A stretch of 64,000 nt of DNA from a virus: positions 1 through 64,000 of IMG/VR virus record IMGVR_UViG_3300036823_000156. One strand, 5' to 3'. The position numbers were made by a program, and so were the translations under genes. Below are positions 3,752-62,944 of the stretch, piece after piece. Each line of letters begins with the position of its first letter. The first letter of the stretch is position 1. The notes beneath the pieces were generated by a model. It saw nothing but the letters and a program-made list of their open reading frames with translations, made no database searches and was not told the DNA's origin.

Positions 3752-4183
3752 TCAGAGCCAGCGGTGGTCGAACCGGTAGCCGCCGTCCGTGTGGGTCATG
3801 CTGCCCGCGACGCGCGGCGGGTGCGGGCGGTTGTCGTGATCGTTGCTGTGACACGTCTCGCCATCGCAACGGTGACCCTGGGGGTAGGCCACGCGGCCGA
3901 CGTTGTAGGCCAGCGCGTACCCCATGTCCATGCCGGCGCCGGTCATCTTGACACCGCCGCGCTTGTCGGTGCGCTCGCCGATGGCTCTCGCGTACAGGTG
4001 CGACAGCGACGCGGGTTGGTTGTCCAGCATGACCACCACGTCGATCACGCGCGTCATGCCGGAGGAGGAGACGTGTCGCAAGATCGTGTACAGCGTGCGG
4101 TCGGTGGCCTGATCGAGCAAGCCGCGCAACGTCGCGCGTGCCTCATCGCGCTCGGCCTGCTGGGCCTTCGTGATGCGAGCCAT
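3752..4183 (-). CDS. conserved-type phage hypothetical protein
   Basis: YTILRHVSSSGMTRVI...GAGMDMG pattern seen in phage early proteins. Confidence 0.7.
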   Translation of the reverse strand: MARITKAQQAERDEARATLRGLLDQATDRTLYTILRHVSSSGMTRVIDVVVMLDNQPASLSHLYARAIGERTDKRGGVKMTGAGMDMGYALAYNVGRVAYPQGHRCDGETCHSNDHDNRPHPPRVAGSMTHTDGGYRFDHRWL

Positions 4184-4284
4184 GGTGTGCCTCTCGGGTG
4201 GGTGGTGCGGGTGAGTGGAACGACACGAGCCTAGCGGAGGTTAGTGCACATTTTGCCTGTTGTGATGCGAACGTTATAGATCAA

Positions 4285-42831: not shown

Positions 42832-43434
42832 TCAGTCGGCAGCATGCTGCTTGCTCAGCCGGTTCAGGAATACCTGGTACTGCGCGCGGTGTTCGGTGAT
42901 CTCGTGGATGATCTCGGCGACGCCGTCGTCGAACGGACGCGCACGCCACCCGGCGATCTCCCGATCCTTCCACTCGATGGCGTCGACCAGCAGCGCGATC
43001 ACCGCATCGCGCGTGGCCCACCGGTCGTCGAAGACCAGCCGAGCATTGTGTTCCACGGCTTTGTATACGTATTCGCGGAGATCGGTCACTCGGCAGAACG
43101 CACGCCGGTCGTAGAACGCGGCCTTGTAGAAGATCGACACTCGACTGCGACCGAACGCGTCCGTGATCTCCGACCACATCGAATGCTCGGTCGCGCTCTT
43201 GGCCCAGCCTTCAGGTATCGTCACGTGACGAAACAACGTGTCGTGCTGGACGACATCGCCCAGCGTGAATCCGATCTCGGCCAGCTTGTCGCTGCCCTTG
43301 GTCGGCACCTGGTCGGAGTGCACCAGTTGGCGCTGCCCGTCGGCCTCCATGCCGGTGATGTAGCCGCTCTGTCCCAGGGCCAGTAGGCCCACGAAGTTGG
43401 TCGCAGGATCGCGCCCGGACGTGTCCTCGATCAT
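42832..43434 (-). CDS. hypothetical protein
   Basis: 'MEADGQRQLV', 'IFYKAAFYDRRA' conserved-type phage motif. Confidence 0.65.
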   Translation of the reverse strand: MIEDTSGRDPATNFVGLLALGQSGYITGMEADGQRQLVHSDQVPTKGSDKLAEIGFTLGDVVQHDTLFRHVTIPEGWAKSATEHSMWSEITDAFGRSRVSIFYKAAFYDRRAFCRVTDLREYVYKAVEHNARLVFDDRWATRDAVIALLVDAIEWKDREIAGWRARPFDDGVAEIIHEITEHRAQYQVFLNRLSKQHAAD

Positions 43435-43585
43435 CGCCTTCCCTTCCTCGCCAACGAGTCGGGCCGGCACCCCGTTCGAGATGCCGACCCGTACTCACTT
43501 CTGGTTGCTCAGCCGTCGCACTTCGTGCGGAAGCAGCTGGTACACACGTACCCTTCCTGGTGGCACGAACACCCGCAGGGGGTCA

Positions 43586-44440
43586 TCAGTCGTTCGGGTT
43601 GTCGTTGGCCTTCAGGCAGACCACCCACGTGCGCACAGTCTGCGTCGTGTCGGTCGTGTTCTGGAAGGTGACCAGCCAACCCTTGCCGTTCGTGCCGGTC
43701 AGTTCGTCCCTGCTCATGCTGACGTTCACACCGGTCACGCTGCCCGAGCCGTTCCCGACCGAGTAGCCACCGCCGACGGCGACGAAATCGGTGGCGGGAC
43801 CGTTGGCGGCATCCCCACCGATCGGGTAGCCGGGGTCGGTGATCAGGTTGTCATCCGCCGTACCAGCACACGTCGCGGCAACCTGGGCCTGCCCATTGGG
43901 CGGGACCGTCGAGCCGAACGAATTGTGCAGCACGTTGCCGACCGTGGGGTCGGCCGGCAGCACCGACTCGGCGTCGATCTCGACCAGGGCGTGCGTGGCT
44001 GCACCCTCTTCTTCGATCACGAACGTGCCGGCCGCGTCCAGCTTGACCCACGCGACGCCGGAGTTCTCGCTGCCCTTGGTGTAGGCCACGGTCGGGTTGC
44101 CCGGCGCGCCGGTGCCGGTCGCGTGGGCGACGAGCTGGCCGGTGCCGGTCGGGTTGAACGCGGTGACCTTGACCAGGACCGCCGTGGCGCCCGGGTCGGC
44201 CAGACCCGCAGCGGCACCGGTGGCCTGCACGGTCACGTCATGACCGTTGAACAGTGGTCCACCGTTCGGGACGCTGAAACCCGGCACGCGCACGTTGGCG
44301 GGCAGGGTGACGACGTTGGACGGGGCGCTGGCGGTACCGGGCGCCGGGGCGGCGCTGGCCGTGCCGGCCAGGCCGAGGCCGGTCAGCGCGAGGGCGCCGA
44401 CGGCGAGGCCGATGACGGCCCGCTTGCTGATCTTGAACAA
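43586..44440 (-). CDS. secreted / surface protein
   Basis: Signal peptide ending ASA; beta-rich; C-terminal 'AVGGGY...GWLV...VVC'. Confidence 0.7.
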   Translation of the reverse strand: MFKISKRAVIGLAVGALALTGLGLAGTASAAPAPGTASAPSNVVTLPANVRVPGFSVPNGGPLFNGHDVTVQATGAAAGLADPGATAVLVKVTAFNPTGTGQLVAHATGTGAPGNPTVAYTKGSENSGVAWVKLDAAGTFVIEEEGAATHALVEIDAESVLPADPTVGNVLHNSFGSTVPPNGQAQVAATCAGTADDNLITDPGYPIGGDAANGPATDFVAVGGGYSVGNGSGSVTGVNVSMSRDELTGTNGKGWLVTFQNTTDTTQTVRTWVVCLKANDNPND

Positions 44441-44509
44441 GGTGTATCCCTTCGAGTAGGTGATGGTGCGTAGCCCTGATGCTCTAGCGGAGGCTGACTC
44501 TAGCAGAGC

Positions 44510-44716
44510 CTAGTCGTCGGGCGCAACGCCCGGGGGCGCGCTTTGGTTGAACAGCGCGATCGTGATGTGGAACTGGCACAGCACGACCATGTACCGCTGG
44601 ATCTCCCCGCCGATCTCCATGGCCAGCATCTGCTGGGACGTGTCCGGCGAGCCGCACAGGTCGTAGGTGTCGGCCTCGGCGTTGTGGCCGGTGACCCGGA
44701 CGCAGGGGCCGCTCAC
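44510..44716 (-). CDS. hypothetical protein
   Basis: Coupled ORF. Confidence 0.5.
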   Translation of the reverse strand: MSGPCVRVTGHNAEADTYDLCGSPDTSQQMLAMEIGGEIQRYMVVLCQFHITIALFNQSAPPGVAPDD

Positions 44717-44946
44717 TCCGGCACGATCGGGCAGTGGCGGTACTGGTCGATGGCGGTCAGGACCGACGGCAGCCGCATCAGCACGTTGTTCATGCTCGCC
44801 GCGATCTCGGGGGCGGCGGCGTCGGACATCGTCACCGCCACGAACCGCGACACGTTCGGCTCACCCTCGAACTGGACGTCGAGGTAGATCGTGCGCGGGT
44901 TGTGCCGGCCGACCCGGAAACTCACGTGCTCGATGAACTCGCTCAC
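44713..44946 (-). CDS. hypothetical protein
   Basis: 'RVGRHNPRTIY' motif. Confidence 0.55.
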   Translation of the reverse strand: MSEFIEHVSFRVGRHNPRTIYLDVQFEGEPNVSRFVAVTMSDAAAPEIAASMNNVLMRLPSVLTAIDQYRHCPIVPE

Positions 44947-45950
44947 CAGTCCTCCCCGTCGATCGTGTCGGCCAGTACCGAGACCTCGGTCGGGCGGTAG
45001 CCGTAGTGCACCCGGTCATTGATCATCTTGGCCTCGGCCAGACTCATGGCTGTGTTGGCCCACTGCCGGCTGCGTTCACCTCGGGGCAGCGAGACGGCGA
45101 AACCGGTGACGCCGCCCCGACCACTGGGCTTGGTCGGGATGCCGGCGCCGACGGTGCTGAACTCGACCACCATGCGATCTAGCTTGGGCGTTCGTTTCGT
45201 GCGGCCCAGAAGCATCCGTTCCAGCTGCAGGTTGACCGGGTAGTCGTCCTCGGGCAGGTGCAACACGCCCGCGACCGGCTCGCCGACCTTCTCGTAGCTG
45301 TAGCGCTTCGGTCCCCAGATCCGGTCCAGCAGGCTGGTGTTCAGGGTGCCGTACTGCCACTTCGGGTCGTCGCGGCTGTGCGTGTCGCGCTTGGCCCACA
45401 GCGACCACGAGAGGAACTTGCCCTCCTGGTTGTAGCTGATGCCGGTGACGCGCGATTCGTAGCCGGTCGGGTTGAGGCGGCGCTGCAGGCCCTGACCGAA
45501 TTTCTGGGTGTGCAGGTAGAGCGCGCCGAGACGACCCAGATGCAGGTGTGCGGCCAGCGTGTGCTCCGATCCGCAGTTGCCGACCTTGAACTCGATCGAG
45601 GCCCCGCGATGCGCCTTCCACAGCACGAGCTGGCCGCCGACGTTGCCGCGCGGTGTCTCGACCAGGAAGGTGCCGGGTTGCGGACGCAGAGGCGCTCCGA
45701 TGACCCGGTCGCCATCCAGCCGCAGGTCCGACGTGCCCGGAGCACCGCCCCGGGCGCCGCACCGGTCACACACCGCCCAGGCCGCCCGGTCGGTGCCGTC
45801 CACGACGGGCCGGTGCCCGAACAGCCGGCACAGCGGGATCAGCCGGGGCAGCTCGTGCACCCAGAAGCCGACGTCGACCGCGGCCTCGACGCCGCCGTCC
45901 TTACGGTAGTCGGTGGCGAACGCGTAGATCTTCTCGCCGAAGTGCTTCAC
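44943..45950 (-). CDS. hypothetical protein
   Basis: LCRLFGH...CDRCG Zn-like motif; long ORF. Confidence 0.65.
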   Translation of the reverse strand: MKHFGEKIYAFATDYRKDGGVEAAVDVGFWVHELPRLIPLCRLFGHRPVVDGTDRAAWAVCDRCGARGGAPGTSDLRLDGDRVIGAPLRPQPGTFLVETPRGNVGGQLVLWKAHRGASIEFKVGNCGSEHTLAAHLHLGRLGALYLHTQKFGQGLQRRLNPTGYESRVTGISYNQEGKFLSWSLWAKRDTHSRDDPKWQYGTLNTSLLDRIWGPKRYSYEKVGEPVAGVLHLPEDDYPVNLQLERMLLGRTKRTPKLDRMVVEFSTVGAGIPTKPSGRGGVTGFAVSLPRGERSRQWANTAMSLAEAKMINDRVHYGYRPTEVSVLADTIDGEDW

Positions 45951-46303
45951 CGGACGCGCTCGCTCATGTGCAAGGCCTGGTGCGGGTCCTCGACCAGGGT
46001 GTAGTGCGCGCCGCCGTCGGTCGACATGGCCTTCGAGTTGCGCTTGTTCTGCCACAGCGGCGTTCCGCTGATGCCGGTCTGATCGACCCACTCGTCCGGG
46101 TCGTTCGTCAGCGGCGTCAGGTTCTCGTACTGCAGCAGCGCGTTCAGCGTCGGGATGAAGACGGACGCCGACCCTCCACTGTGGCGCATGTCGGCGAACA
46201 CCCGGATCATCTCCAGGTATCCGCGGACCATGTCCGGCTCCTCGCCCAGCAGTGCCAGCTCGCGCTGGGCGTGCTTGATCAGGTTACTGTCGCTCTCGCT
46301 CAC
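45947..46303 (-). CDS. hypothetical protein
   Basis: 'HAQREL', 'HSGGSA', 'LTPLT', 'WQNKR' conserved-type phage motif. Confidence 0.65.
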   Translation of the reverse strand: MSESDSNLIKHAQRELALLGEEPDMVRGYLEMIRVFADMRHSGGSASVFIPTLNALLQYENLTPLTNDPDEWVDQTGISGTPLWQNKRNSKAMSTDGGAHYTLVEDPHQALHMSERVR

Positions 46304-47430
46304 TTCGTGGGCTCCTTCACCTTGAGAAACTTGCTGGACACCGCGTCGACCCGGTGGTCGGCGTACGGGTCCTCCTGGTGGTAGGCGTAGTGCTGGTAGG
46401 ACTCCCAGTCGCCGCCCTGCTCGTGCAGCTCGCACATCTCGACGAACGGACAGAAGACGCACTCGCGCGTGGGGGTCTTGGTGATCGGCAACTCGCCGGT
46501 GCGCACCAGGTTCATGTGCTCGACCTCGTCCTGGATGCGGTCAAGCTGGATCTGGCGCTCCTTGGCGGTGCGCCGGATCGTGGTGCGCAGGAACAGCGGT
46601 GCCGGCTGGACCTTGCTGACCTCGCCCAGCACCTGCAGCATGAGTGCCGCCGCGATGGACTCCAGGCCGTCCTTGGACAGCTTCTTCAGGTCGGCCTCGG
46701 TCCAGCCGTCCAGCCCGGTCAGCGCCGCGATGTAGTGCGGCTTGGTCGGCTGGTTGGTGGCCAGACCCTGCTCGGTGCGCGGCCGGTCGTCGGGCATCCC
46801 CTTGCGCATGAAGTTGTACTCGATGCCGTACAGGGATTCCTTCGGGCCGATCTTGCCCTGGTGCCGCAGCTCGTGCGTGGCGACCGCCCAGTACGACCCG
46901 GCCTGGTCGTCGAGCACCAGGTGCGAGGTCGAGATGGTGGCCGCGGTCTTGTGCTCCATGAGCTTGATCTTGCCGTCAGCGTGGTCGCGGATGACGCCGT
47001 CGAACGTGCCGACGTAGTTGATCACCGGCGAGGGCCGTCCAATGAGGACATGGAAGGCGTACTCCGGTGAGATCACCTCCCACGACGGGTCGCCCCGGTA
47101 GCGCTGGACGTAGCCCTCCATCATGGCCGCGCCCAGCTTCTTCGCATCCACCCACTCGGCCTGTTCCGGATCGCCGGTGCCCCGGTTGTCCCGGATGAAG
47201 GCCAACGTGTCGCCGCAGTAGCGCTCCCACGTCTCGCGCGGGTCGGCGCCCCGGACCATGCCGGGCGGGTAGTACTCGGCCAGCGCGAGGTGGATGCCGG
47301 TGCCGAACCACAGGGCATCCGGCTTCACCGCGTTGGTCCGCAGGCCCATCCGGTAGGACCAGAACCATTGCTGGATGCAACGTTTGAACGAACCGCGCTC
47401 GCTGGTGCGCAGGTAGGGCAGATCGTTCAT
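46300..47430 (-). CDS. Cas4/RecB-like PD-(D/E)xK exonuclease
   Basis: SERGSFKRC, FGTGIH, GTFDG...MEHKT, Q..SY, C-terminal CxxCPFxxxC. Confidence 0.85.
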   Translation of the reverse strand: MNDLPYLRTSERGSFKRCIQQWFWSYRMGLRTNAVKPDALWFGTGIHLALAEYYPPGMVRGADPRETWERYCGDTLAFIRDNRGTGDPEQAEWVDAKKLGAAMMEGYVQRYRGDPSWEVISPEYAFHVLIGRPSPVINYVGTFDGVIRDHADGKIKLMEHKTAATISTSHLVLDDQAGSYWAVATHELRHQGKIGPKESLYGIEYNFMRKGMPDDRPRTEQGLATNQPTKPHYIAALTGLDGWTEADLKKLSKDGLESIAAALMLQVLGEVSKVQPAPLFLRTTIRRTAKERQIQLDRIQDEVEHMNLVRTGELPITKTPTRECVFCPFVEMCELHEQGGDWESYQHYAYHQEDPYADHRVDAVSSKFLKVKEPTK

Positions 47431-47431
47431 C

Positions 47432-47752
47432 TCAGTCTTCCGGCCGCAAGGCGGGGTCGTCGAGCACCTGGTCCTCGGGGACGCCCTTGCGAGTGGCGTA
47501 GGCGTGCCGGGCGTTGCCGCTCCTACACTTCGGGCAGCGGCAGTAGTAGTTGTTGTAGGAGTTGAGGACGCCGTGCTCCGGAGCGTCCGGTGCCCACATG
47601 AACTCCTGGTCGTGCAGCTCGGCGCGCTCGGCCTGGGTGAAGACCATGCGCTGCGCGTTCTCCAGGTCGTCCCAGCCCGGCGGCATCGAACCGGCCCGGG
47701 ACAGAACACGTGCGTCGCGTCGTTTCTCGCGTAGTTCGGCCGTGTTGGGCAT
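47432..47752 (-). CDS. hypothetical Zn-binding protein
   Basis: HG...YNNYYCRCPKC. Confidence 0.6.
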   Translation of the reverse strand: MPNTAELREKRRDARVLSRAGSMPPGWDDLENAQRMVFTQAERAELHDQEFMWAPDAPEHGVLNSYNNYYCRCPKCRSGNARHAYATRKGVPEDQVLDDPALRPED

Positions 47753-51855: not shown

Positions 51856-52782
51856 TCAGGCCGCGTCCTGCAGGTCGGGCGGTCCGAAGCCGTGGGCGAC
51901 GTGGATGGCGCGGGACTGCCGCCACAGGTCGCGCAGGACCTCCTTGGACACGCACCGCAGGGCGCGAGCGTGGATGTGGTTCTTCGACAGCGGGGTGCCG
52001 GCGAGCGCGGGGCTGCCCGAGGGTCCGCATCGGACGCAGGCCAACTCGTGCACGGCGTCGGCGTAGAACTCCTTCTCCTGGTCGTAGACCTCGCGGTACG
52101 GGCCGCCGGACTTCATGCAGGACTCGGAAATCATCCGGCAGCGCATCCGCGCGGTGACCGACCAGTTGACCTTGGTGCCCTTGCGGCGGGCCGGAGCCAG
52201 ACCGGCGATCACGCTGTAGCCGGAGTAGCTCCACAGCTCGGCGATCGTGCGGGGGCGGCCCATCTTGACGTTCCAGTACGGATCCCCGATCGCGGCCAGC
52301 AGTCGACCGACCTGCTTGGCGCCCAGGCCCTTCTGCGCCTCGATCCAGCCGTACAGCGGGTGGTCCTGAATGGTCTTCTGCAGGTTCTTCGTCGCGTTGA
52401 CCTCGGCCCGCTGCATCGGCGGCACGATCAGGCCCATCTGCCACACCATCGGGTTCCAGCCCTTGGGCATGGTGAAGATCTTGCGGTTGGCCGCGGCCTG
52501 GATGGACAGGTGCGTCTCGACCTCGTCGAGCACGGCCTGCACGAGGTCGAAATCCTCCTCGTCCTCGGGCACGTGGATGTTCGGGGGCAGGAAGCCGAAG
52601 CCGACGTCCTTGCCGTCCTTGTTCATCCGGGGCAGCACGAGCTGGCGCAACCGGTTCTGGTTGGCGATGCGCACGCGCTCCATGTCGTCGAGCACGTCGG
52701 CGGCCATCGTCAACGTGGGCGGCGACATCAGTTCGGCGAGGGGATTCGGTACCGCTTCGACCTCTTCGATCTCTTCTGTCAT
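51856..52782 (-). CDS. Nop-domain / IS110 C-terminal-like RNA-binding protein without nuclease domain (TasA-like)
   Basis: RVRIANQNRL coiled coil, KGLGAKQVGRLLAAIGD, LWSYSG, RRKG...NWS, YREVYD..K, HARALR...K..L.DLW; no RuvC/DEDD N-terminus. Confidence 0.8.
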   Translation of the reverse strand: MTEEIEEVEAVPNPLAELMSPPTLTMAADVLDDMERVRIANQNRLRQLVLPRMNKDGKDVGFGFLPPNIHVPEDEEDFDLVQAVLDEVETHLSIQAAANRKIFTMPKGWNPMVWQMGLIVPPMQRAEVNATKNLQKTIQDHPLYGWIEAQKGLGAKQVGRLLAAIGDPYWNVKMGRPRTIAELWSYSGYSVIAGLAPARRKGTKVNWSVTARMRCRMISESCMKSGGPYREVYDQEKEFYADAVHELACVRCGPSGSPALAGTPLSKNHIHARALRCVSKEVLRDLWRQSRAIHVAHGFGPPDLQDAA

Positions 52783-53175: not shown

Positions 53176-53178
53176 TGA

Positions 53179-53190
53179 AATGTACACTAA
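53179..53190 (-). promoter_or_regulatory. TTAGTGTACATT motif immediately 5' of the stem-loop array
   Basis: CACCGACCTnnGTTAGTGTACATT is shared with the copy at 54904. Confidence 0.65.
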
Positions 53191-53215
53191 CACAGGTCGG
53201 TGTAGCGGTAATGAT

Positions 53216-53656
53216 CCAAGCCTCGCCTCGCCTGGCCGCGCCCTGCCCAGCCTCGCCCCGCCATGCACCGCCTTGCCTAGCACCGCATCGCCAAGCGCGT
53301 CCGGCAGCGGAGTCGAACCGCTGCTACGACCATCCGGACAACCATTCTCCCAGCCTTGCCATGCCGCGCCATGCCTCGCCGGGCACCGCCCAGCCTCGCC
53401 ACGCCGAGCGTGCTGCCCCCGGGAGTCGAACCCGAGATGCGACCATCGCAGCTACCATTCTCCTAGCCACGCCGCGCACCGCCGCGCCCTGCCGCGCCGA
53501 GCCACGCCATGCCAAGCCACGCCCTGCCGAGCGTGCTGCCCCCGGGAGTCGAACCCGAGGTACGACCATCGCAGCCACCATTCTCCTAGCCTGGCCCAGC
53601 CGCGCCCTGCCCTGCCGAGCCACGCCCTGCCCTGCCGAGCCACGCCACGCCCTGCA
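53216..53656 (-). ncRNA. array of four (GGC-NN)n pentamer tracts separated by three tRNA-like linkers
   Basis: Tracts of 14, 14, 12 and 16 pentamers; linkers GGAGAATGGT..GATGGTCG..GGTTCGACTCC with covarying stems. Confidence 0.85.
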
Positions 53657-53664
53657 TCTTCGCG

Positions 53665-54150
53665 CTAGGCGCGAAGTTTCTTGGGAGCGTTGCGCTCCAA
53701 TTCTGCCACTCGCTCGGCGAGTGACCGAGTTTCGCGGCGGCGGCGGCCGTTGATCTCGGCCTTGCGAGCTGCTACGCGTTCCTCGAAGTCCACCTCGGCC
53801 CGCCGTTCGTGTACCAGTTCGGCACGACGGCGTTGTGAGGCATTGATCTTGGCGGCGTGACGGTCGTCAGCGCGTGCAGCTTTCTTGCGTTGCCTGCCGA
53901 TCAGCGGCACGGCGGCGTTCGGCTCCAACACCAGCCACCCGATGTTCTCCTTGGTTTCGACCGTGTTCTTGCCGGCACGACCGAGTTCCAGATTGGCCTT
54001 GATCATCGCGCCTTGGACCGAGTTCCGGCTGGGCGCCTTGCAGTCCTCGATAGCCTGGGCATAGGTGATGACGCCACCCACCTCGGTCTCGCACACGATG
54101 TCGTACAGGATCCGCCAACGTGCCTTGCCGTTCGCAGGTTCGATGTTCAT
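53665..54150 (-). CDS. putative winged-HTH / coiled-coil DNA-binding accessory protein
   Basis: WRILYDIVCETEVGGVITYAQA (HTH-like), basic coiled-coil C-terminus; coupled to the RAMP-like gene. Confidence 0.55.
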   Translation of the reverse strand: MNIEPANGKARWRILYDIVCETEVGGVITYAQAIEDCKAPSRNSVQGAMIKANLELGRAGKNTVETKENIGWLVLEPNAAVPLIGRQRKKAARADDRHAAKINASQRRRAELVHERRAEVDFEERVAARKAEINGRRRRETRSLAERVAELERNAPKKLRA

Positions 54151-54722
54151 TGAGTCACCTCGACCGTGAACCTCCCGTAGAACCGGCGGAACGTGCCGAC
54201 ACCGATCATCTTGCCCGCCTTGGTCGCGATATCTTGGAAGTCCTCGGTCGACAGCACGCGGTCGTCGACGTCGATCTCGAACGCGCAGGACCACTGCGGG
54301 AAGATCGGCCGGACGCGCGGGATGCGCTTGCCCTCCACATTCACCATCAGGCGGCTGACGTACGGACTGGTCGGCCCGTCGCCCCAGAGACCGTCGACAT
54401 CGCGCGGCCCGTCATAGGACAGTGGCGCCTTCAGATCAAAAACCTGAAGAGCTTGAGCGACTTTCTTGCCCGACCGGGTGATGGACCCCGCCTCCATCAG
54501 CGCCCGGAAGATGTTGTCACCCGGCAGGTACGGACCGAGCTCGGCGTTGTGGTACAGCGCCCCGACCCAGGACAACCGGTCGATCTCGGCCCTGTCCTCG
54601 TCGGTCTTGTTGGTTCGTTTGGACGTCAGTTTCTTTACGGCCCTGGTGATCGGCTCATCGGGGTCGGCAAGTCTGATGTTGTGCATGATGAGCGGCGCGA
54701 TGCCGGTCAGCTCGATTCGCAT
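54147..54722 (-). CDS. Cas7/RAMP-like RNA-binding protein
   Basis: N-terminal strand MRIELTGIAPLIMH, 'YLPGDNIFRAL', 'RVRPIFPQWS..F', C-terminal Gly-rich loop AGKMIGVGTFRRFYGRF. Confidence 0.75.
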   Translation of the reverse strand: MRIELTGIAPLIMHNIRLADPDEPITRAVKKLTSKRTNKTDEDRAEIDRLSWVGALYHNAELGPYLPGDNIFRALMEAGSITRSGKKVAQALQVFDLKAPLSYDGPRDVDGLWGDGPTSPYVSRLMVNVEGKRIPRVRPIFPQWSCAFEIDVDDRVLSTEDFQDIATKAGKMIGVGTFRRFYGRFTVEVTQ

Positions 54723-54790: not shown

Positions 54791-54901
54791 GTGCGGGCCG
54801 AGGACTCGAACCTCGGTGTGTGCCGCTCCCGCTTCCTAGCCTGGCCCCGCCAAGCCCTGCCCTGCCGAGCCACGCCCTGCCATGCCGAGCCCTGCCTTGC
54901 A
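54791..54901 (-). ncRNA. leader (GGC-NN)13 tract plus tRNA-like element
   Basis: 13 pentamers, then GCGGG...CCGAGG-TTCGAGT-CCTCGG-CCCGC-AC. Confidence 0.82.
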
Positions 54902-54903
54902 AG

Positions 54904-54937
54904 AATGTACACTAACGTAGGTCGGTGATCGCGTCAA
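54904..54937 (-). promoter_or_regulatory. sigma70-type promoter TTGACG-N17-TAGTGT
   Basis: -35 at 54932-54937, -10 at 54909-54914; predicted start falls at the first pentamer. Confidence 0.7.
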
Positions 54938-61134: not shown

Positions 61135-62772
61135 TCAGGCGGAATAGAACGGCCAGTTGGCGTTCTGCCCGCGCTCCAGCAGTTCGATCTGTCGGAACGC
61201 GGAGTCGGTCAGACCGCTCATCACGTGCCGGTTGGCCGCGCCCGACGGGGCGTGCCCGCGCCGGTATCCGGCCAGATTGTAGGTGTAGAGCGGGGTGCTG
61301 TCCGGCAGGGCCGAGCCGGGATCTTTGCCCCAGTAGTCGCTGGCCTGCTCGTCGGTCAGGATGACCACGCGGTCGTGCTTGTCGAAGTTCCGGGCCACCG
61401 CCTGGGTGGTTTCCGTGCCGCCCGCCAGGAAGTAGCCCGCACTCTTCCACCGGGCGATGCCACTGAGCAGCGACTCTTCCTTGCGGAACGGGAACTTCGT
61501 CGAGGCGTTGGAGAACGACACGACGGTCGGCTGATCGCACCGATGGGCCAGGGCCAGGCCGAACAGCACCGCCGCGTCCCAGCGGGCCAGCGTGCCGTCC
61601 TTGCTGAACGTCGCGTCCATCGACGCGGACGTGTCCACCAGGATCAGTGTGCGACCCTCCAGCGTCGTGATGTTGTCCAGCGAGTTCTGCAGAGCGCGTT
61701 CCAGCGCGCCCTGCCACCGGCCACCGCTGCCGACGGCGCGGGCACTGGAGAGCAGCTGCATCGGCCACTGGCGGGCGGCCACGATCTCGGCCGGGTCGGA
61801 CAGCCGCGCCACGACGTGCTTGACCGAGGCGGGAGAGATGCCGGCCTGGTCGAAGTTGCGCAGGTTCATCCGCAACGCCTGGAACCCCATCGACGGGATC
61901 AGCGCGTCCCACACCGGGCCGGTCATCTCGCCCTGCAGCCAGCCCGACACGGTCTCCCACGTCATGCCGGCCGACGCGATCTTGTTGGCCGCCTTGACCG
62001 GGTCCTTGGTGAACAGCCTGCGCCGCTTGTCCAGGTCCCACTGCTGCATCTTCCGGTTGGCCGTGATCATCTTCAACTCGGCCGGGATCACGGCGTCCTT
62101 GTGCTTGTAGTGGCGGTCCAGGATGTAGGAGAACAACGCGGACTGCTCGGCGTCACGCGGTCGCGGCCGGCACAACGCGATCACCCGGGCGAAGTCGAAC
62201 TCCCGTTCGCCGGTGTCGTACTTGAGGAACGCGCGCTGCGTGTACATCCGGGTGGCCGCCGAGGCCGCGCCCCGACGCCAGGAGATCGGCAGGGTGTCCT
62301 TGCCCGGGTGCGTGCTGCGCCAGTAGGCCAGGGCCTCGCCGGGCTCGTCCGGGCGCTGCAGGGCCGCGTCGAGGAACAGGCGGCCGGAGAACTCCTCGTG
62401 CCCTTCGTAGCGCTTGAGGCCGTCCAGCGCGTGCGCGGCGGCCACCATCGGGGCGGTGCGCAGGAATCCCTCGGTCCGCAGCCACTTGATCCACGCCATG
62501 GTCCACTGTGGATTCAGCGCGGCGACGTTGCGGGTGAGGGTGGCGAAGCGCGAGTCGCGGTCTTTGGCGGTCTCGTAGAAGGTGTCCTGCCCGACCATGT
62601 TCTGGACCGAGAGCAGGAACAGCTCGGACTGCAGGCCGCGGGCGTAGCCGGGGCCGCCCTCCTCGGTGCGTCCGGTCGGCGTCGACTCGGAGAGGATCGG
62701 GGACATGCCCGGCGCGGACGGCGGCGCCGTCCGCGCCGTGCGGGCGGAGGCCGGTGGATTGAAACGAGCCAT
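61135..62772 (-). CDS. rsr: Ro60/Rsr TROVE-domain protein with C-terminal vWA domain
   Basis: TEEGGPGY, ELFLL...QDTFYE, QRPDEPGE, FLKYD, MTWE, ALRMNLRN, vWA LVDTSASM (DxSxS), GGT, ILTDEQ. Confidence 0.92.
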   Translation of the reverse strand: MARFNPPASARTARTAPPSAPGMSPILSESTPTGRTEEGGPGYARGLQSELFLLSVQNMVGQDTFYETAKDRDSRFATLTRNVAALNPQWTMAWIKWLRTEGFLRTAPMVAAAHALDGLKRYEGHEEFSGRLFLDAALQRPDEPGEALAYWRSTHPGKDTLPISWRRGAASAATRMYTQRAFLKYDTGEREFDFARVIALCRPRPRDAEQSALFSYILDRHYKHKDAVIPAELKMITANRKMQQWDLDKRRRLFTKDPVKAANKIASAGMTWETVSGWLQGEMTGPVWDALIPSMGFQALRMNLRNFDQAGISPASVKHVVARLSDPAEIVAARQWPMQLLSSARAVGSGGRWQGALERALQNSLDNITTLEGRTLILVDTSASMDATFSKDGTLARWDAAVLFGLALAHRCDQPTVVSFSNASTKFPFRKEESLLSGIARWKSAGYFLAGGTETTQAVARNFDKHDRVVILTDEQASDYWGKDPGSALPDSTPLYTYNLAGYRRGHAPSGAANRHVMSGLTDSAFRQIELLERGQNANWPFYSA

Positions 62773-62815: not shown

Positions 62816-62944
62816 GAGTCCGAGAAAAGGTGGTCGAAGGTATTGTCGCGCTCTACCGCTGAGCTACCCACCGAAGTGGGGCGGGATTCGAACCCGCGAC
62901 CTCGTCCTTACAGGGGAAGTAACCCTCAACCTGACTGCGGACTC
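62816..62944 (-). ncRNA. Y RNA, YrlA-like (tRNA-like domain)
   Basis: Terminal stem GAGTCCG/CGGACTC, GGTTGAGGGT/ACCTTCGACC, T-arm GCGGGTTCGAATCCCGC, hairpin CCCACTTCGGTGGG, D-arm TAGCTCAGCGGTAGAGC in permuted order; adjacent to TROVE. Confidence 0.85.

What the first reader, a model, noticed from the sequence alone, without database searches (positions are those of the whole stretch)
53296..53586. tRNA-mimic linkers with compensatory base changes punctuate the pentamer array
Three linkers in the array and one after the leader tract (54791-54835) fold as a short acceptor-like stem stacked on a T-arm with a TTCGA(C/G)T loop. The pairings are GCTGC/GCAGC with CTCGGG/CCCGGG (two copies), GTCCGG/CCGGAC with GCAGCGG/CCGCTGC, and GCGGG/CCCGC with CCGAGG/CCTCGG. 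Sequence changes while pairing is kept, which indicates selection on RNA structure. Inference: these mini-tRNA elements recruit host RNase P or tRNA 3'-processing nucleases to cut the transcript into unit guides, replacing a Cas6-like enzyme, or they protect guide 3' ends.
Basis: partly seen in the sequence, partly recalled or inferred. Interest (0 to 1): 0.85.

Follow-up and report, generated by a model that had tools for sequence, protein, structure and literature searches.

The report
tRNA-like tails on VIPR guide RNAs
The four small RNA folds are real: they are miniature tRNA look-alikes that end the guide RNAs of a phage VIPR system (a CRISPR-related gene-silencing system first described in 2026), and the VIPR papers I could read do not mention this tail design.

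Summary
Four elements on the minus strand (53296-53340, 53410-53452, 53533-53575, 54791-54832) each form an acceptor-like stem stacked on a T-arm with a TTCGA(C/G)T loop. A structural scan finds exactly these four in the 84-kb phage genome, against 0.17 expected. Homologues in more than 140 other viral loci show heavy compensatory change.

The locus is a VIPR system (bioRxiv 10.64898/2026.04.26.720920). It has a Vipr protein (profile E=1e-45 to the solved SUSP1 Vipr, Cas7-like fold), a vap1-like gene and five (GGC-NN)n guide tracts. The "linkers" are the structured 3' tails of the guide RNAs (vrRNAs).

These tails differ from the published SUSP1 pseudoknot tail. They are T-loop minihelices with an invariant GG linker. 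Covariation supports tertiary pairs between the linker and T-loop positions 6-7.

The same module also occurs without Vipr. Eight copies fill successive intergenic gaps in Streptomyces phage Saftant.

Recruitment of RNase P or RNase Z is plausible but untested, and an RNase P cut would sever the guide from its tail. No RNA data were available and no targets were found.

This scan has already reached the same reading on several other genomes. Verdict: a new variant of a known kind.

The parts
54909..54937 (-). Promoter-like site: TTGACG (54937-54932), 17 nt, TAGTGT (54914-54909). It opens about 10 nt before the first guide tract.
   Evidence: Read by eye. The consensus scan did not call it, because the -10 matches TATAAT at only 3 of 6 positions. 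This is inference only. A second copy of the TAGTGTACATT motif lies at 53178-53205.
54839..54898 (-). vrRNA1 guide tract of 12-13 GGC-NN units, upstream of vipr.
   Evidence: GGC-NN runs occur nowhere else in the 84-kb genome.
54791..54832 (-). Class-B T-loop tail of vrRNA1: P1 GCGGG/CCCGC, linker AGCGGCACACA, P2 CCGAGG/CCTCGG, loop TTCGAGT, then AC.
   Evidence: The minimum-energy fold reproduces P1 and P2.
54147..54722 (-). vipr gene (191 aa), a RAMP/Cas7-like guide-binding protein.
   Evidence: A profile of 32 homologues hits PDB 36pp_D 'SUSP1 Vipr protein' at E=1.1e-45. The AF2 model has pLDDT 93.4. The top Foldseek hits are Csm3/Cas7. The family is phrog_4652.
53665..54150 (-). vap1-like accessory gene (161 aa). 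Its start overlaps the vipr stop codon.
   Evidence: It has the same position and size as SUSP1 vap1, with weak BLASTP similarity (27% over 78 aa, E=3e-4). There is no Pfam or PADLOC hit.
53589..53653 (-). vrRNA2 guide tract (about 14 units). It shares much of its NN series with vrRNA1.
53533..53575 (-). Class-A T-loop tail A3: P1 GCTGC/GCAGC, linker GATGGTCGTA, 7-bp P2, loop TTCGACT, then AC.
53466..53530 (-). vrRNA3 guide tract (about 13 units).
53410..53452 (-). Class-A T-loop tail A2. It has the same stems as A3, with C-G replaced by T.G at the base of P2.
53353..53407 (-). vrRNA4 guide tract (about 11 units).
53296..53340 (-). Class-A T-loop tail A1. Both stems differ from A2 and A3 (GTCCGG/CCGGAC and CAGCGG/CCGCTG).
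53220..53292 (-). Fifth GGC-NN tract (about 16 units, three of them degenerate as TGC). No T-loop tail follows it, and it runs into the next promoter-like motif.

Best explanation
The four elements are the structured 3' tails of the guide RNAs (vrRNAs) of a type II-like VIPR system carried by this soil phage.

**Layout.** On the minus strand the order is: promoter-like site, guide tract 1, tail B, vipr, vap1-like gene. Then follow three [guide tract + tail A] units that abut each other, and a fifth tract without a tail.

**Published mechanism.** By homology with the published system, Vipr protomers coat the GGC-NN tract. The NN dinucleotides read double-stranded DNA with a one-base skip.

**The tail fold.** Each tail is a compact T-loop minihelix. 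A 5-7 bp acceptor-like stem stacks on a 6-7 bp T-arm. A 10-11 nt linker replaces the D and anticodon arms. The linker keeps an invariant GG, like G18-G19 of tRNA, and pairs through two bases with T-loop positions 6-7, which makes the fold formally a pseudoknot.

**Proposed role.** The tail caps and stabilises the 3' end of the guide and marks where one guide ends and the next begins. Only 4-6 nt separate a tail from the next tract, which leaves no room for a promoter. The array must therefore be cut from one transcript. I think the cut most likely falls just 3' of the tail (after the unpaired A, or AC). It would be made by the host's tRNA 3'-end machinery, or by trimming that stops at the fold.

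**Shown here.** The fold and its covariation; Vipr homology and fold; the tract-plus-tail grammar; co-occurrence of the tracts with Vipr.

**Taken from papers.** Guide function, the skip rule, and the tail as a 3' cap.

**Inferred.** The nuclease and the exact cut site.
For: - **Protein.** The Vipr profile matches PDB 36pp_D 'SUSP1 Vipr protein' at E=1.1e-45. The model has a Cas7/Csm3-like fold.
- **Tracts.** There are five GGC-NN tracts of 11-16 units, and they occur only here in the genome.
- **Co-occurrence.** In 20 or more independent loci, GGY-NN tracts sit next to a Vipr homologue on the same strand. Of 72 Vipr-anchored viral loci, 67 have such tracts and 17 have a T-loop tail directly after a tract.
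- **Published architecture.** The papers describe vipr + vap, one vrRNA upstream and three downstream, 9-16 GGY/NN repeats followed by an invariable structured 3' tail, and the tail seen capping the RNA 3' end in cryo-EM.
- **Unit grammar.** Here the order is promoter-like site, tract, tail B, vipr. In L043 it is vipr, tract, tail, tract, tail, next gene.
- **Covariation.** Outer and inner stems covary. Tertiary pairs also covary: linker 2:8 (CG 31, AU 12, GC 8), linker 9 with loop 7 (AU 29, GC 12, CG 9, UA 1), and linker 10 with loop 6 (CG 51, GC 1).
- **Chance.** The genome scan finds four elements against 0.17 expected.
Against: - No RNA-level data exist for this phage, so the ends, the cuts and retention of the tail on the mature guide are all unobserved.
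- The fifth tract has no tail. In Gordonia phage Trine, one tail follows the vipr stop codon with no tract before it, so the unit grammar is not perfectly regular.
- Across 83 tract-adjacent elements, 17 have a tract only upstream and 13 only downstream. That count alone does not settle whether the element is a 3' or a 5' attachment.
- The tail here does not resemble the SUSP1 tail in sequence or fold. Transfer of the 'cap' role rests on position only.
- No DNA target was found for any guide.
- The vap similarity is weak.
Confidence: 0.82

Rival explanations
1. One reading: the mini-tRNAs work mainly as decoy substrates for host RNase P (5' cut) and RNase Z (3' cut). They are excised, releasing bare guide tracts, as tRNAs do in engineered tRNA-gRNA arrays or in the tRNA-miRNA transcripts of murine gammaherpesvirus 68.
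For: - The T-loop is canonical, with a stack of 11-12 bp. The first pair is G-C in 49 of 52 and 60 of 89 homologues, and A-C follows the stem in 242 of 380 elements.
- The same module occurs in eight successive intergenic gaps of Streptomyces phage Saftant, which has no Vipr. Some host factor, or the RNA itself, must therefore give it a function there.
- Units abut with no room for promoters.
- The VIPR paper reports other arrays interspersed with self-cleaving hammerhead ribozymes, so 'a cleavage device between guides' has a precedent.
- The only Rfam similarity is a weak, sub-threshold match to the tRNA-like mascRNA.
Against: - No cleavage data exist.
- An RNase P cut would strip every guide of its tail. 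Published vrRNAs keep theirs, and the tail is treated as needed for complex formation.
- The acceptor-like stem is 5-6 bp here rather than 7, and there is no CCA.
- The linker-to-loop pairs are not a tRNA feature.
- I found no ribozymes in equivalent gaps in 33 loci.
Confidence: 0.3
2. The tail is mainly a protein handle. Vipr or the vap protein recognises it specifically to nucleate or terminate filament assembly, as Cas5 and Cas6 bind the CRISPR repeat handle. Host tRNA enzymes play no part.
For: - The October 2026 paper treats a shared consensus tail as making a solo vrRNA competent for Vipr complex formation.
- In cryo-EM, the tail-proximal subunits are the best ordered.
- A conserved GGRA unit and a purine-rich box link the last guide unit to the stem.
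Against: - One locus mixes two or three tail classes with different linkers and loops. This is seen in the window and in L178, L193 and L200.
- The same element is abundant in phages without Vipr.
- Stems vary freely, so any recognition would have to be of shape.
Confidence: 0.3
3. The elements are relics of tRNA genes or phage attachment-site fragments, or DNA-level sites such as origin iterons, with no RNA function.
For: - The T-arm sequence is identical to that of many real tRNAs.
- The locus lies among replication genes in Trine.
Against: - Both acceptor strands are present with only 10-11 nt between them, which no tRNA fragment would give.
- Hundreds of double-sided compensatory changes, and strand-specific G.U pairs, occur in the homologues.
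- The elements always lie on the gene strand, directly after the guide tracts.
- ARAGORN finds nothing.
Confidence: 0.02
4. They are transcription terminators or attenuators that end each guide transcript.
For: - They are stable GC-rich hairpins at the ends of units.
- Many solo copies lie just after stop codons.
Against: - No U-tract follows them.
- Downstream units have no promoter of their own.
- Conservation of the T-loop, the GG and the tertiary pairs goes beyond what a terminator needs.
Confidence: 0.05

Closest known systems
vrRNA 3' tail of type II VIPR systems (Escherichia phage SUSP1; bioRxiv 10.64898/2026.04.26.720920, 10.64898/2026.04.26.720927, 10.64898/2026.10.15.759431)
   Same: It holds the same place, directly 3' of a 9-16-unit GGY-NN tract. 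The locus has the same layout: vipr + vap, one guide upstream and several downstream. The Vipr proteins are homologous. Both tails are formally pseudoknotted, and both begin with a GATGGT-like motif.
   Different: The SUSP1 and wV8 tails are H-type pseudoknots with no T-loop. Here the tail is an acceptor/T-arm minihelix. SUSP1 units are separated by a conserved leader of about 45 nt, whereas these units abut. The papers do not mention tRNA likeness.
Hammerhead-ribozyme-interspersed VIPR arrays (same 2026 paper, its fig. S19)
   Same: A structured RNA sits between guides and can account for cutting the array into units.
   Different: Those elements cleave themselves. The element here has no ribozyme signature (Rfam) and would need a protein or RNP nuclease.
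tRNA-like processing modules: mascRNA of MALAT1 (Rfam RF01684), tRNA-miRNA transcripts of murine gammaherpesvirus 68, engineered polycistronic tRNA-gRNA arrays (from my own knowledge)
   Same: The top half of a tRNA (acceptor stem stacked on a T-arm) is placed next to a functional small RNA. Solo copies give weak sub-threshold hits to RF01684.
   Different: Those are full cloverleaf-like folds with proven RNase P and RNase Z cleavage. Here the D and anticodon arms are replaced by an 11-nt linker, and cleavage is unproven.
CRISPR repeat-derived handle of crRNA (Cas6 or Cas5 bound)
   Same: A constant structured segment caps a variable guide that is bound by Cas7-family subunits.
   Different: There is no dedicated endonuclease gene in the locus. 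The handle resembles a tRNA, the guide is a gapped 5-nt code, and the tail sequence differs between units of one array.
YrlA Y RNA tRNA-like domain (Rfam RF02553), present in this same phage at 62847-62904
   Same: It is another phage-borne RNA that mimics the tRNA elbow with a T-arm and a D-arm.
   Different: It pairs with Ro60, has a full D-arm, and is unrelated in sequence and context.

Membership tests
VIPR system (type II-like) | A Vipr protein: a minimal RAMP/Cas7-like protein homologous to SUSP1 Vipr. | tested here: met
   The profile hits PDB 36pp_D at E=1.1e-45 over residues 3-191. The model has pLDDT 93.4. The top Foldseek hits are Csm3/Cas7.
VIPR system (type II-like) | vrRNA tracts of about 9-16 tandem GGY-NN units flanking vipr. 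| tested here: met
   There are five tracts of 11-16 GGC-NN units on the gene strand, one upstream and four downstream. They are unique in the genome.
VIPR system (type II-like) | A conserved structured 3' tail after each tract. | tested here: met
   Four of the five tracts are followed within 10-15 nt by a covariation-supported fold. The fifth has none.
VIPR system (type II-like) | An adjacent vap accessory gene (a DNA-binding vap1 in type II). | tested here: inconclusive
   A 161-aa gene is translationally coupled to vipr. BLASTP to SUSP1 vap1 gives 27% over 78 aa, E=3e-4. There is no Pfam or PADLOC family.
VIPR system (type II-like) | Guides match DNA targets by the one-base-skip rule. | tested here: inconclusive
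   There is no self match above shuffled guides and none in 2 Mb of related loci. Seven exact-pattern scans of the viral, genome and metagenome collections found nothing.
VIPR system (type II-like) | vrRNAs are expressed and bound by Vipr. | not testable with these tools
   No RNA holder was listed for this DNA.
tRNA / tRNA-like structure | A T-arm: a 5-bp stem closed by G53-C61, with a 7-nt loop T-T-C-R-A-N-N. | tested here: met
   The sequence is GGTTCGACTCC (three copies) and GGTTCGAGTCC (one copy). The closing G-C pair is invariant in 141 homologues.
tRNA / tRNA-like structure | A 7-bp acceptor stem stacked on the T-stem (12 bp), followed by a discriminator base and CCA. | tested here: inconclusive
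   The stems give 5-7 bp plus 6-7 bp, or 11-13 bp in all. The first pair is mostly G-C, and an unpaired A-C follows in 242 of 380 elements. No CCA is encoded.
tRNA / tRNA-like structure | A D-arm with G18-G19, and an anticodon arm. | tested here: not met
   A 10-11 nt linker replaces both arms. It keeps an invariant GG and, in class B, one covarying pair that closes a 5-nt loop. ARAGORN finds no tRNA, and the Rfam tRNA models give no hit at E<=10.
tRNA / tRNA-like structure | Substrate of RNase P, RNase Z or the CCA-adding enzyme. | not testable with these tools
   This needs enzyme assays or RNA end mapping.
SUSP1-type pseudoknot tail | An H-type pseudoknot of the SUSP1 consensus (GGTAG...CTACC, or GTAG / AGTCTCA / CTAC / TGAGACT). 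| tested here: not met
   I read the SUSP1 and wV8 loci directly. They show no T-loop and no sequence likeness beyond GATGGT.
Any Rfam 15 family | A score at or above the family's gathering threshold. | tested here: not met
   The four elements give no hit at E<=10. Solo copies in Saftant reach only 19-21 bits against mascRNA, whose threshold is 42.5.

The most novel reading that the evidence does not exclude
The T-loop minihelix may be a portable phage RNA module that hijacks the host's tRNA-end machinery (RNase Z, possibly RNase P and the CCA-adding enzyme). Actinophages would use it in two ways. In genomes without Vipr, such as Saftant, it would punctuate and stabilise polycistronic mRNAs. 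In VIPR arrays it would mature the guide RNAs. Guide biogenesis in this ancient CRISPR relative would then rest on tRNA mimicry rather than on a Cas6-type enzyme or a ribozyme.
Probability: 0.3. Interest if true: 0.72.

Novelty: new variant of a known kind. Interest (0 to 1): 0.5.

Why it matters
VIPR is a newly described RNA-guided DNA-silencing system, proposed to predate CRISPR. The papers I could read do not explain how its guides are cut out of an array, except for arrays that carry hammerhead ribozymes.

About a quarter of the Vipr-anchored viral loci I sampled, including culturable Gordonia and Mycobacterium phages, have a tRNA-like tail. That gives a concrete, testable route for guide maturation by host tRNA enzymes. 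It also gives a compact natural design for multiplexed guide arrays.

The same module punctuates operons of Streptomyces phages that lack Vipr. This points to a wider, undescribed class of phage RNA-processing or RNA-stability elements that is absent from Rfam.

Tried and rejected
**Searches that gave nothing**
- ARAGORN finds no tRNA or tmRNA in the window.
- Rfam at E<=10 gives nothing on the elements.
- Folding energy of single copies is no better than shuffles.
- Pfam and PADLOC give nothing for Vipr or vap.
- RNA evidence: no RNA holder is listed. The only holders are two soil-metagenome DNA runs, so I did not use read laying.
- Targets: there is no self match and no match in 2 Mb of fetched loci above shuffled guides. 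Seven exact one-base-skip patterns of 10-11 units found nothing. They covered three scans of viral contigs, two of genome contigs and two of metagenome contigs. Natural targets may carry mismatches, so this is not evidence of absence.
- Ribozymes in equivalent positions: none at the gathering score in 13 Streptomyces-phage loci or in 20 VIPR loci without T-loop tails.

**Readings I considered early and dropped once Vipr homology appeared**
- A phage attP carrying a tRNA 3' half.
- A TRAP-like ring protein binding GGC triplets.
- Two-tetrad G-quadruplexes.
- A C-rich Rho-loading site on the plus strand.
- Origin iterons.

**A structural alternative left open**
- In class A, a 5-bp pairing of the linker GGTCG with loop CGACT is possible on paper. 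My search pattern fixed both sides, so I cannot test it. With no residue between it and the 3' strand of P2, it also looks sterically unlikely.

**A mistake I corrected**
- I first assumed the AT-richer loci with class-A tails were Felixounavirus. Phage wV8 in fact carries SUSP1-type tails, and those loci are unidentified phage contigs.

**A count that did not settle the question**
- Counting tracts on either side of the elements (17 upstream only, 13 downstream only, 53 both) did not decide between 3' and 5' attachment.

Full report
**What is there.** All genes around the finding lie on the minus strand. Read in that sense, the region holds the following, in order:

- A promoter-like site, TTGACG-17 nt-TAGTGT (54937-54909). 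I read it by eye; the consensus scan did not call it.
- A tract of 12-13 GGC-NN pentamers (54898-54839).
- A 42-nt structured element (54832-54791).
- A 191-aa gene (54722-54147).
- A translationally coupled 161-aa gene (54150-53665).
- Three abutting units of [GGC-NN tract + structured element].
- A fifth, partly degenerate tract with no such element (53292-53220).

GGC-NN runs of five or more units occur nowhere else in the 83,959-bp phage genome. The genome is an IMG/VR record whose only sequencing-run holders are soil metagenomes.

- A3 and A2 have GCTGC/GCAGC and a 7-bp T-stem ending CTCGGG/CCCGGG.
- A1 has GTCCGG/CCGGAC and CAGCGG/CCGCTG.
- B has GCGGG/CCCGC and CCGAGG/CCTCGG.
- The loops are TTCGACT (three copies) and TTCGAGT (one copy), each closed by a G-C pair. 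This is the consensus tRNA T-arm.

A scan for this architecture over the whole genome finds exactly these four elements, against 0.17 in shuffles. Folding energy alone is unremarkable (z -1.1 to +0.6), as expected in GC-rich DNA. ARAGORN and Rfam find nothing.

**Relatives and covariation.** Two exact-pattern scans of viral contigs found the class-A motif (linker GATGGTCG..., loop TTCGACT) in more than 108 loci. They found the class-B motif (linker ..CGGCAS.., loop TTCGAGT) in 63 loci.

In 89 distinct class-A copies the pattern had left the outer stem and four inner-stem pairs free. There, 95.5% of cells pair, against 60.8% in shuffles, with 324 double-sided changes.

In 52 class-B-like copies that did not come from the class-B pattern scan, three contacts that I had not selected for are supported:

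- Linker position 2 with 8: CG 31, AU 12, GC 8.
- Linker position 9 with loop position 7: AU 29, GC 12, CG 9, UA 1.
- Linker position 10 with loop position 6: CG 51, GC 1.

The stems in that set were required by my scan, so only the tertiary pairs count as independent evidence there. G.U pairs appear only in the minus-strand sense.

The fold is therefore a 5-7 bp acceptor-like stem on a 6-7 bp T-arm. It has a 10-11 nt linker with an invariant GG, and two bases of the linker pair with the last two T-loop bases. It copies the top half of a tRNA, but it lacks D and anticodon arms and is formally a pseudoknot.

**What the locus is.** Wherever GGY-NN tracts appeared in the fetched loci, a homologue of the 191-aa protein lay next to them on the same strand.

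- A profile of 32 homologues hits the solved 'SUSP1 Vipr protein' (PDB 36pp_D) at E=1.1e-45.
- The AlphaFold model (pLDDT 93.4) resembles Csm3/Cas7 RAMP proteins.

The literature search then identified VIPR, Viral Interference Programmable Repeat systems. The papers describe the following:

- A vipr gene and a vap accessory gene.
- vrRNAs of 9-16 GGY/NN repeats followed by an invariable structured 3' tail.
- In phage SUSP1, one vrRNA upstream of the genes and three downstream.
- NN dinucleotides that read double-stranded DNA with a one-base skip.
- A tail that caps the RNA 3' end in cryo-EM.

The window has this architecture, so the 'linkers' are vrRNA 3' tails. The second gene resembles SUSP1 vap1 only weakly.

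**How these tails differ from what is published.** I read the SUSP1 and wV8 loci directly. Their tails are H-type pseudoknots with no T-loop, and a conserved leader of about 45 nt separates their units.

Here the tails are T-loop minihelices, and units abut with 4-6 nt between the tail's A-C and the next tract. The main VIPR paper also lists staggered arrays, hammerhead-interspersed arrays and single-guide systems. None of the four papers that mention VIPR contains 'tRNA', 'T-loop' or 'RNase P'. The one supplementary file held also lacks them.

Of 72 viral loci anchored on a Vipr homologue, 67 have GGY tracts. Seventeen have a T-loop tail directly after a tract, mostly the closest relatives of this Vipr. 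Several loci, including this window, mix tail classes.

**Which side does the element belong to?** Two arrangements argue for a tract-plus-3'-tail unit, as in the published systems.

- Here the upstream unit runs promoter-like site, tract, tail B, vipr.
- Locus L043 runs vipr, tract, tail, tract, tail, next gene.

Simple counts of flanking tracts do not settle the point. Irregular cases exist: the tail-less fifth tract here, and a tract-less tail after the vipr stop codon in Trine.

**Mechanism.** The fold, the homology and the grammar are shown here. The functions of the guide and of the tail as a cap come from the papers.

Abutting units must be cut from one transcript, and the element looks like the part of a tRNA that RNase Z and RNase P recognise. 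I therefore infer that the 3' end of each guide is set just after the tail. The host tRNA 3'-end machinery could do this, or trimming that stops at the fold.

An RNase P cut at the 5' side of the stem would separate a guide from its own tail, so I rate it lower. Mixed tail classes within a locus, and solo copies in phages without Vipr, argue against a purely Vipr-specific handle.

**Solo copies.** Most T-loop elements in the fetched loci have no tract on either side (295 of 378). In the annotated Streptomyces phage Saftant there are eight class-B copies. All lie on the gene strand, and each fills one intergenic gap of the leftward operon between 42.9 and 47.5 kb. No Vipr homologue is present (best tblastn E=0.19). 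Rfam gives only weak sub-threshold matches to the tRNA-like mascRNA. The module therefore has a life of its own, and VIPR arrays appear to have adopted it, or the reverse.

**Targets.** None of the five guides matches the phage's own genome by the one-base-skip rule, so there is no self-targeting. No target turned up in 2 Mb of related loci or in seven exact-pattern scans of public collections. vrRNA1 and vrRNA2 share much of their NN series, and that series contains an internal repeat.

**Earlier notes of this scan.** First-reader notes on this genome had already called the protein RAMP/Cas7-like and the NN code wobble-skipping, and my tests agree. Follow-up reports on several other genomes reached the same reading of tRNA-like tails on VIPR guides. 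I saw them only after my own analysis.

What this report adds is the tertiary covariation, the share of Vipr loci that use this tail, the direct comparison with SUSP1 and wV8, and the Saftant case. I could not reproduce that in 33 loci.

**Verdict.** The system itself is known. The tail is a new variant that the accessible VIPR papers do not describe, and it offers a testable route for guide maturation.

Noticed in passing
window 61135-62772 (-) and 62847-62904 (-): The phage encodes a Ro60-like protein (TROVE domain E=7e-11, plus a vWA domain). Right next to it is a Y RNA-like tRNA-mimic: Rfam YrlA, 42.7 bits, E=6.8e-8, below the gathering score of 69 because only the tRNA-like core matches. 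At first sight it looked like a circularly permuted tRNA.
   Followed up: partly
L250 (Streptomyces phage Saftant NC_054675) 42894-47513, minus strand: Eight solo class-B T-loop minihelices each fill one intergenic gap of the leftward operon (gp61 to gp74). The phage has no Vipr homologue and no GGY tracts. Other Streptomyces-phage contigs (L118, L122, L139, L141) carry 6-10 copies. No Rfam family covers them.
   Followed up: partly
L001 (Gordonia phage Trine MH271318) locus 3960-4255: The annotated gene 40 (804 bp) runs through the whole vrRNA array of three tails and two tracts. The real vap-like gene probably starts near locus position 3958, so the N-terminal third of the annotated protein is likely an artefact of an open frame in GC-rich repeats.
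   Followed up: partly
window 53178-53205 and 54904-54928: A near-identical 24-nt motif (CACCGACCTRYGTTAGTGTACATT in minus-strand sense) heads the VIPR locus. It recurs right after the fifth tract, ahead of a hairpin-rich stretch and a 308-aa gene of phrog_4285 ('transposase', IS110-like) at 51856-52782. I did not test this.
   Followed up: no
window 53576-53664 and 54833-54905 (minus strand): vrRNA1 and vrRNA2 share most of their NN series (..AG GT TC AG AG .. CA TA). vrRNA2 repeats the block GT TC AG AG twice, which hints at a tandemly repeated or duplicated target. No target was found.
   Followed up: partly
window 53658-53676: A perfect 8-bp hairpin (CTTCGCGC-TAG-GCGCGAAG on the plus strand) holds the vap stop codon in its loop and sits immediately before the first downstream guide tract. 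It may mark the 5' boundary of vrRNA2, or act as a two-way terminator. The terminator scan called it on the plus strand only.
   Followed up: no
window 53576-53590, 53453-53467, 53341-53354, 54833-54840 (minus strand): Between the last GGC-NN unit and the outer stem, every unit has a final GGR unit and a purine-rich box (GGAGAATGGT for class A, GGAA for class B). Related loci show the same GGRA ending. It may be the last Vipr-binding register or a junction signal.
   Followed up: no
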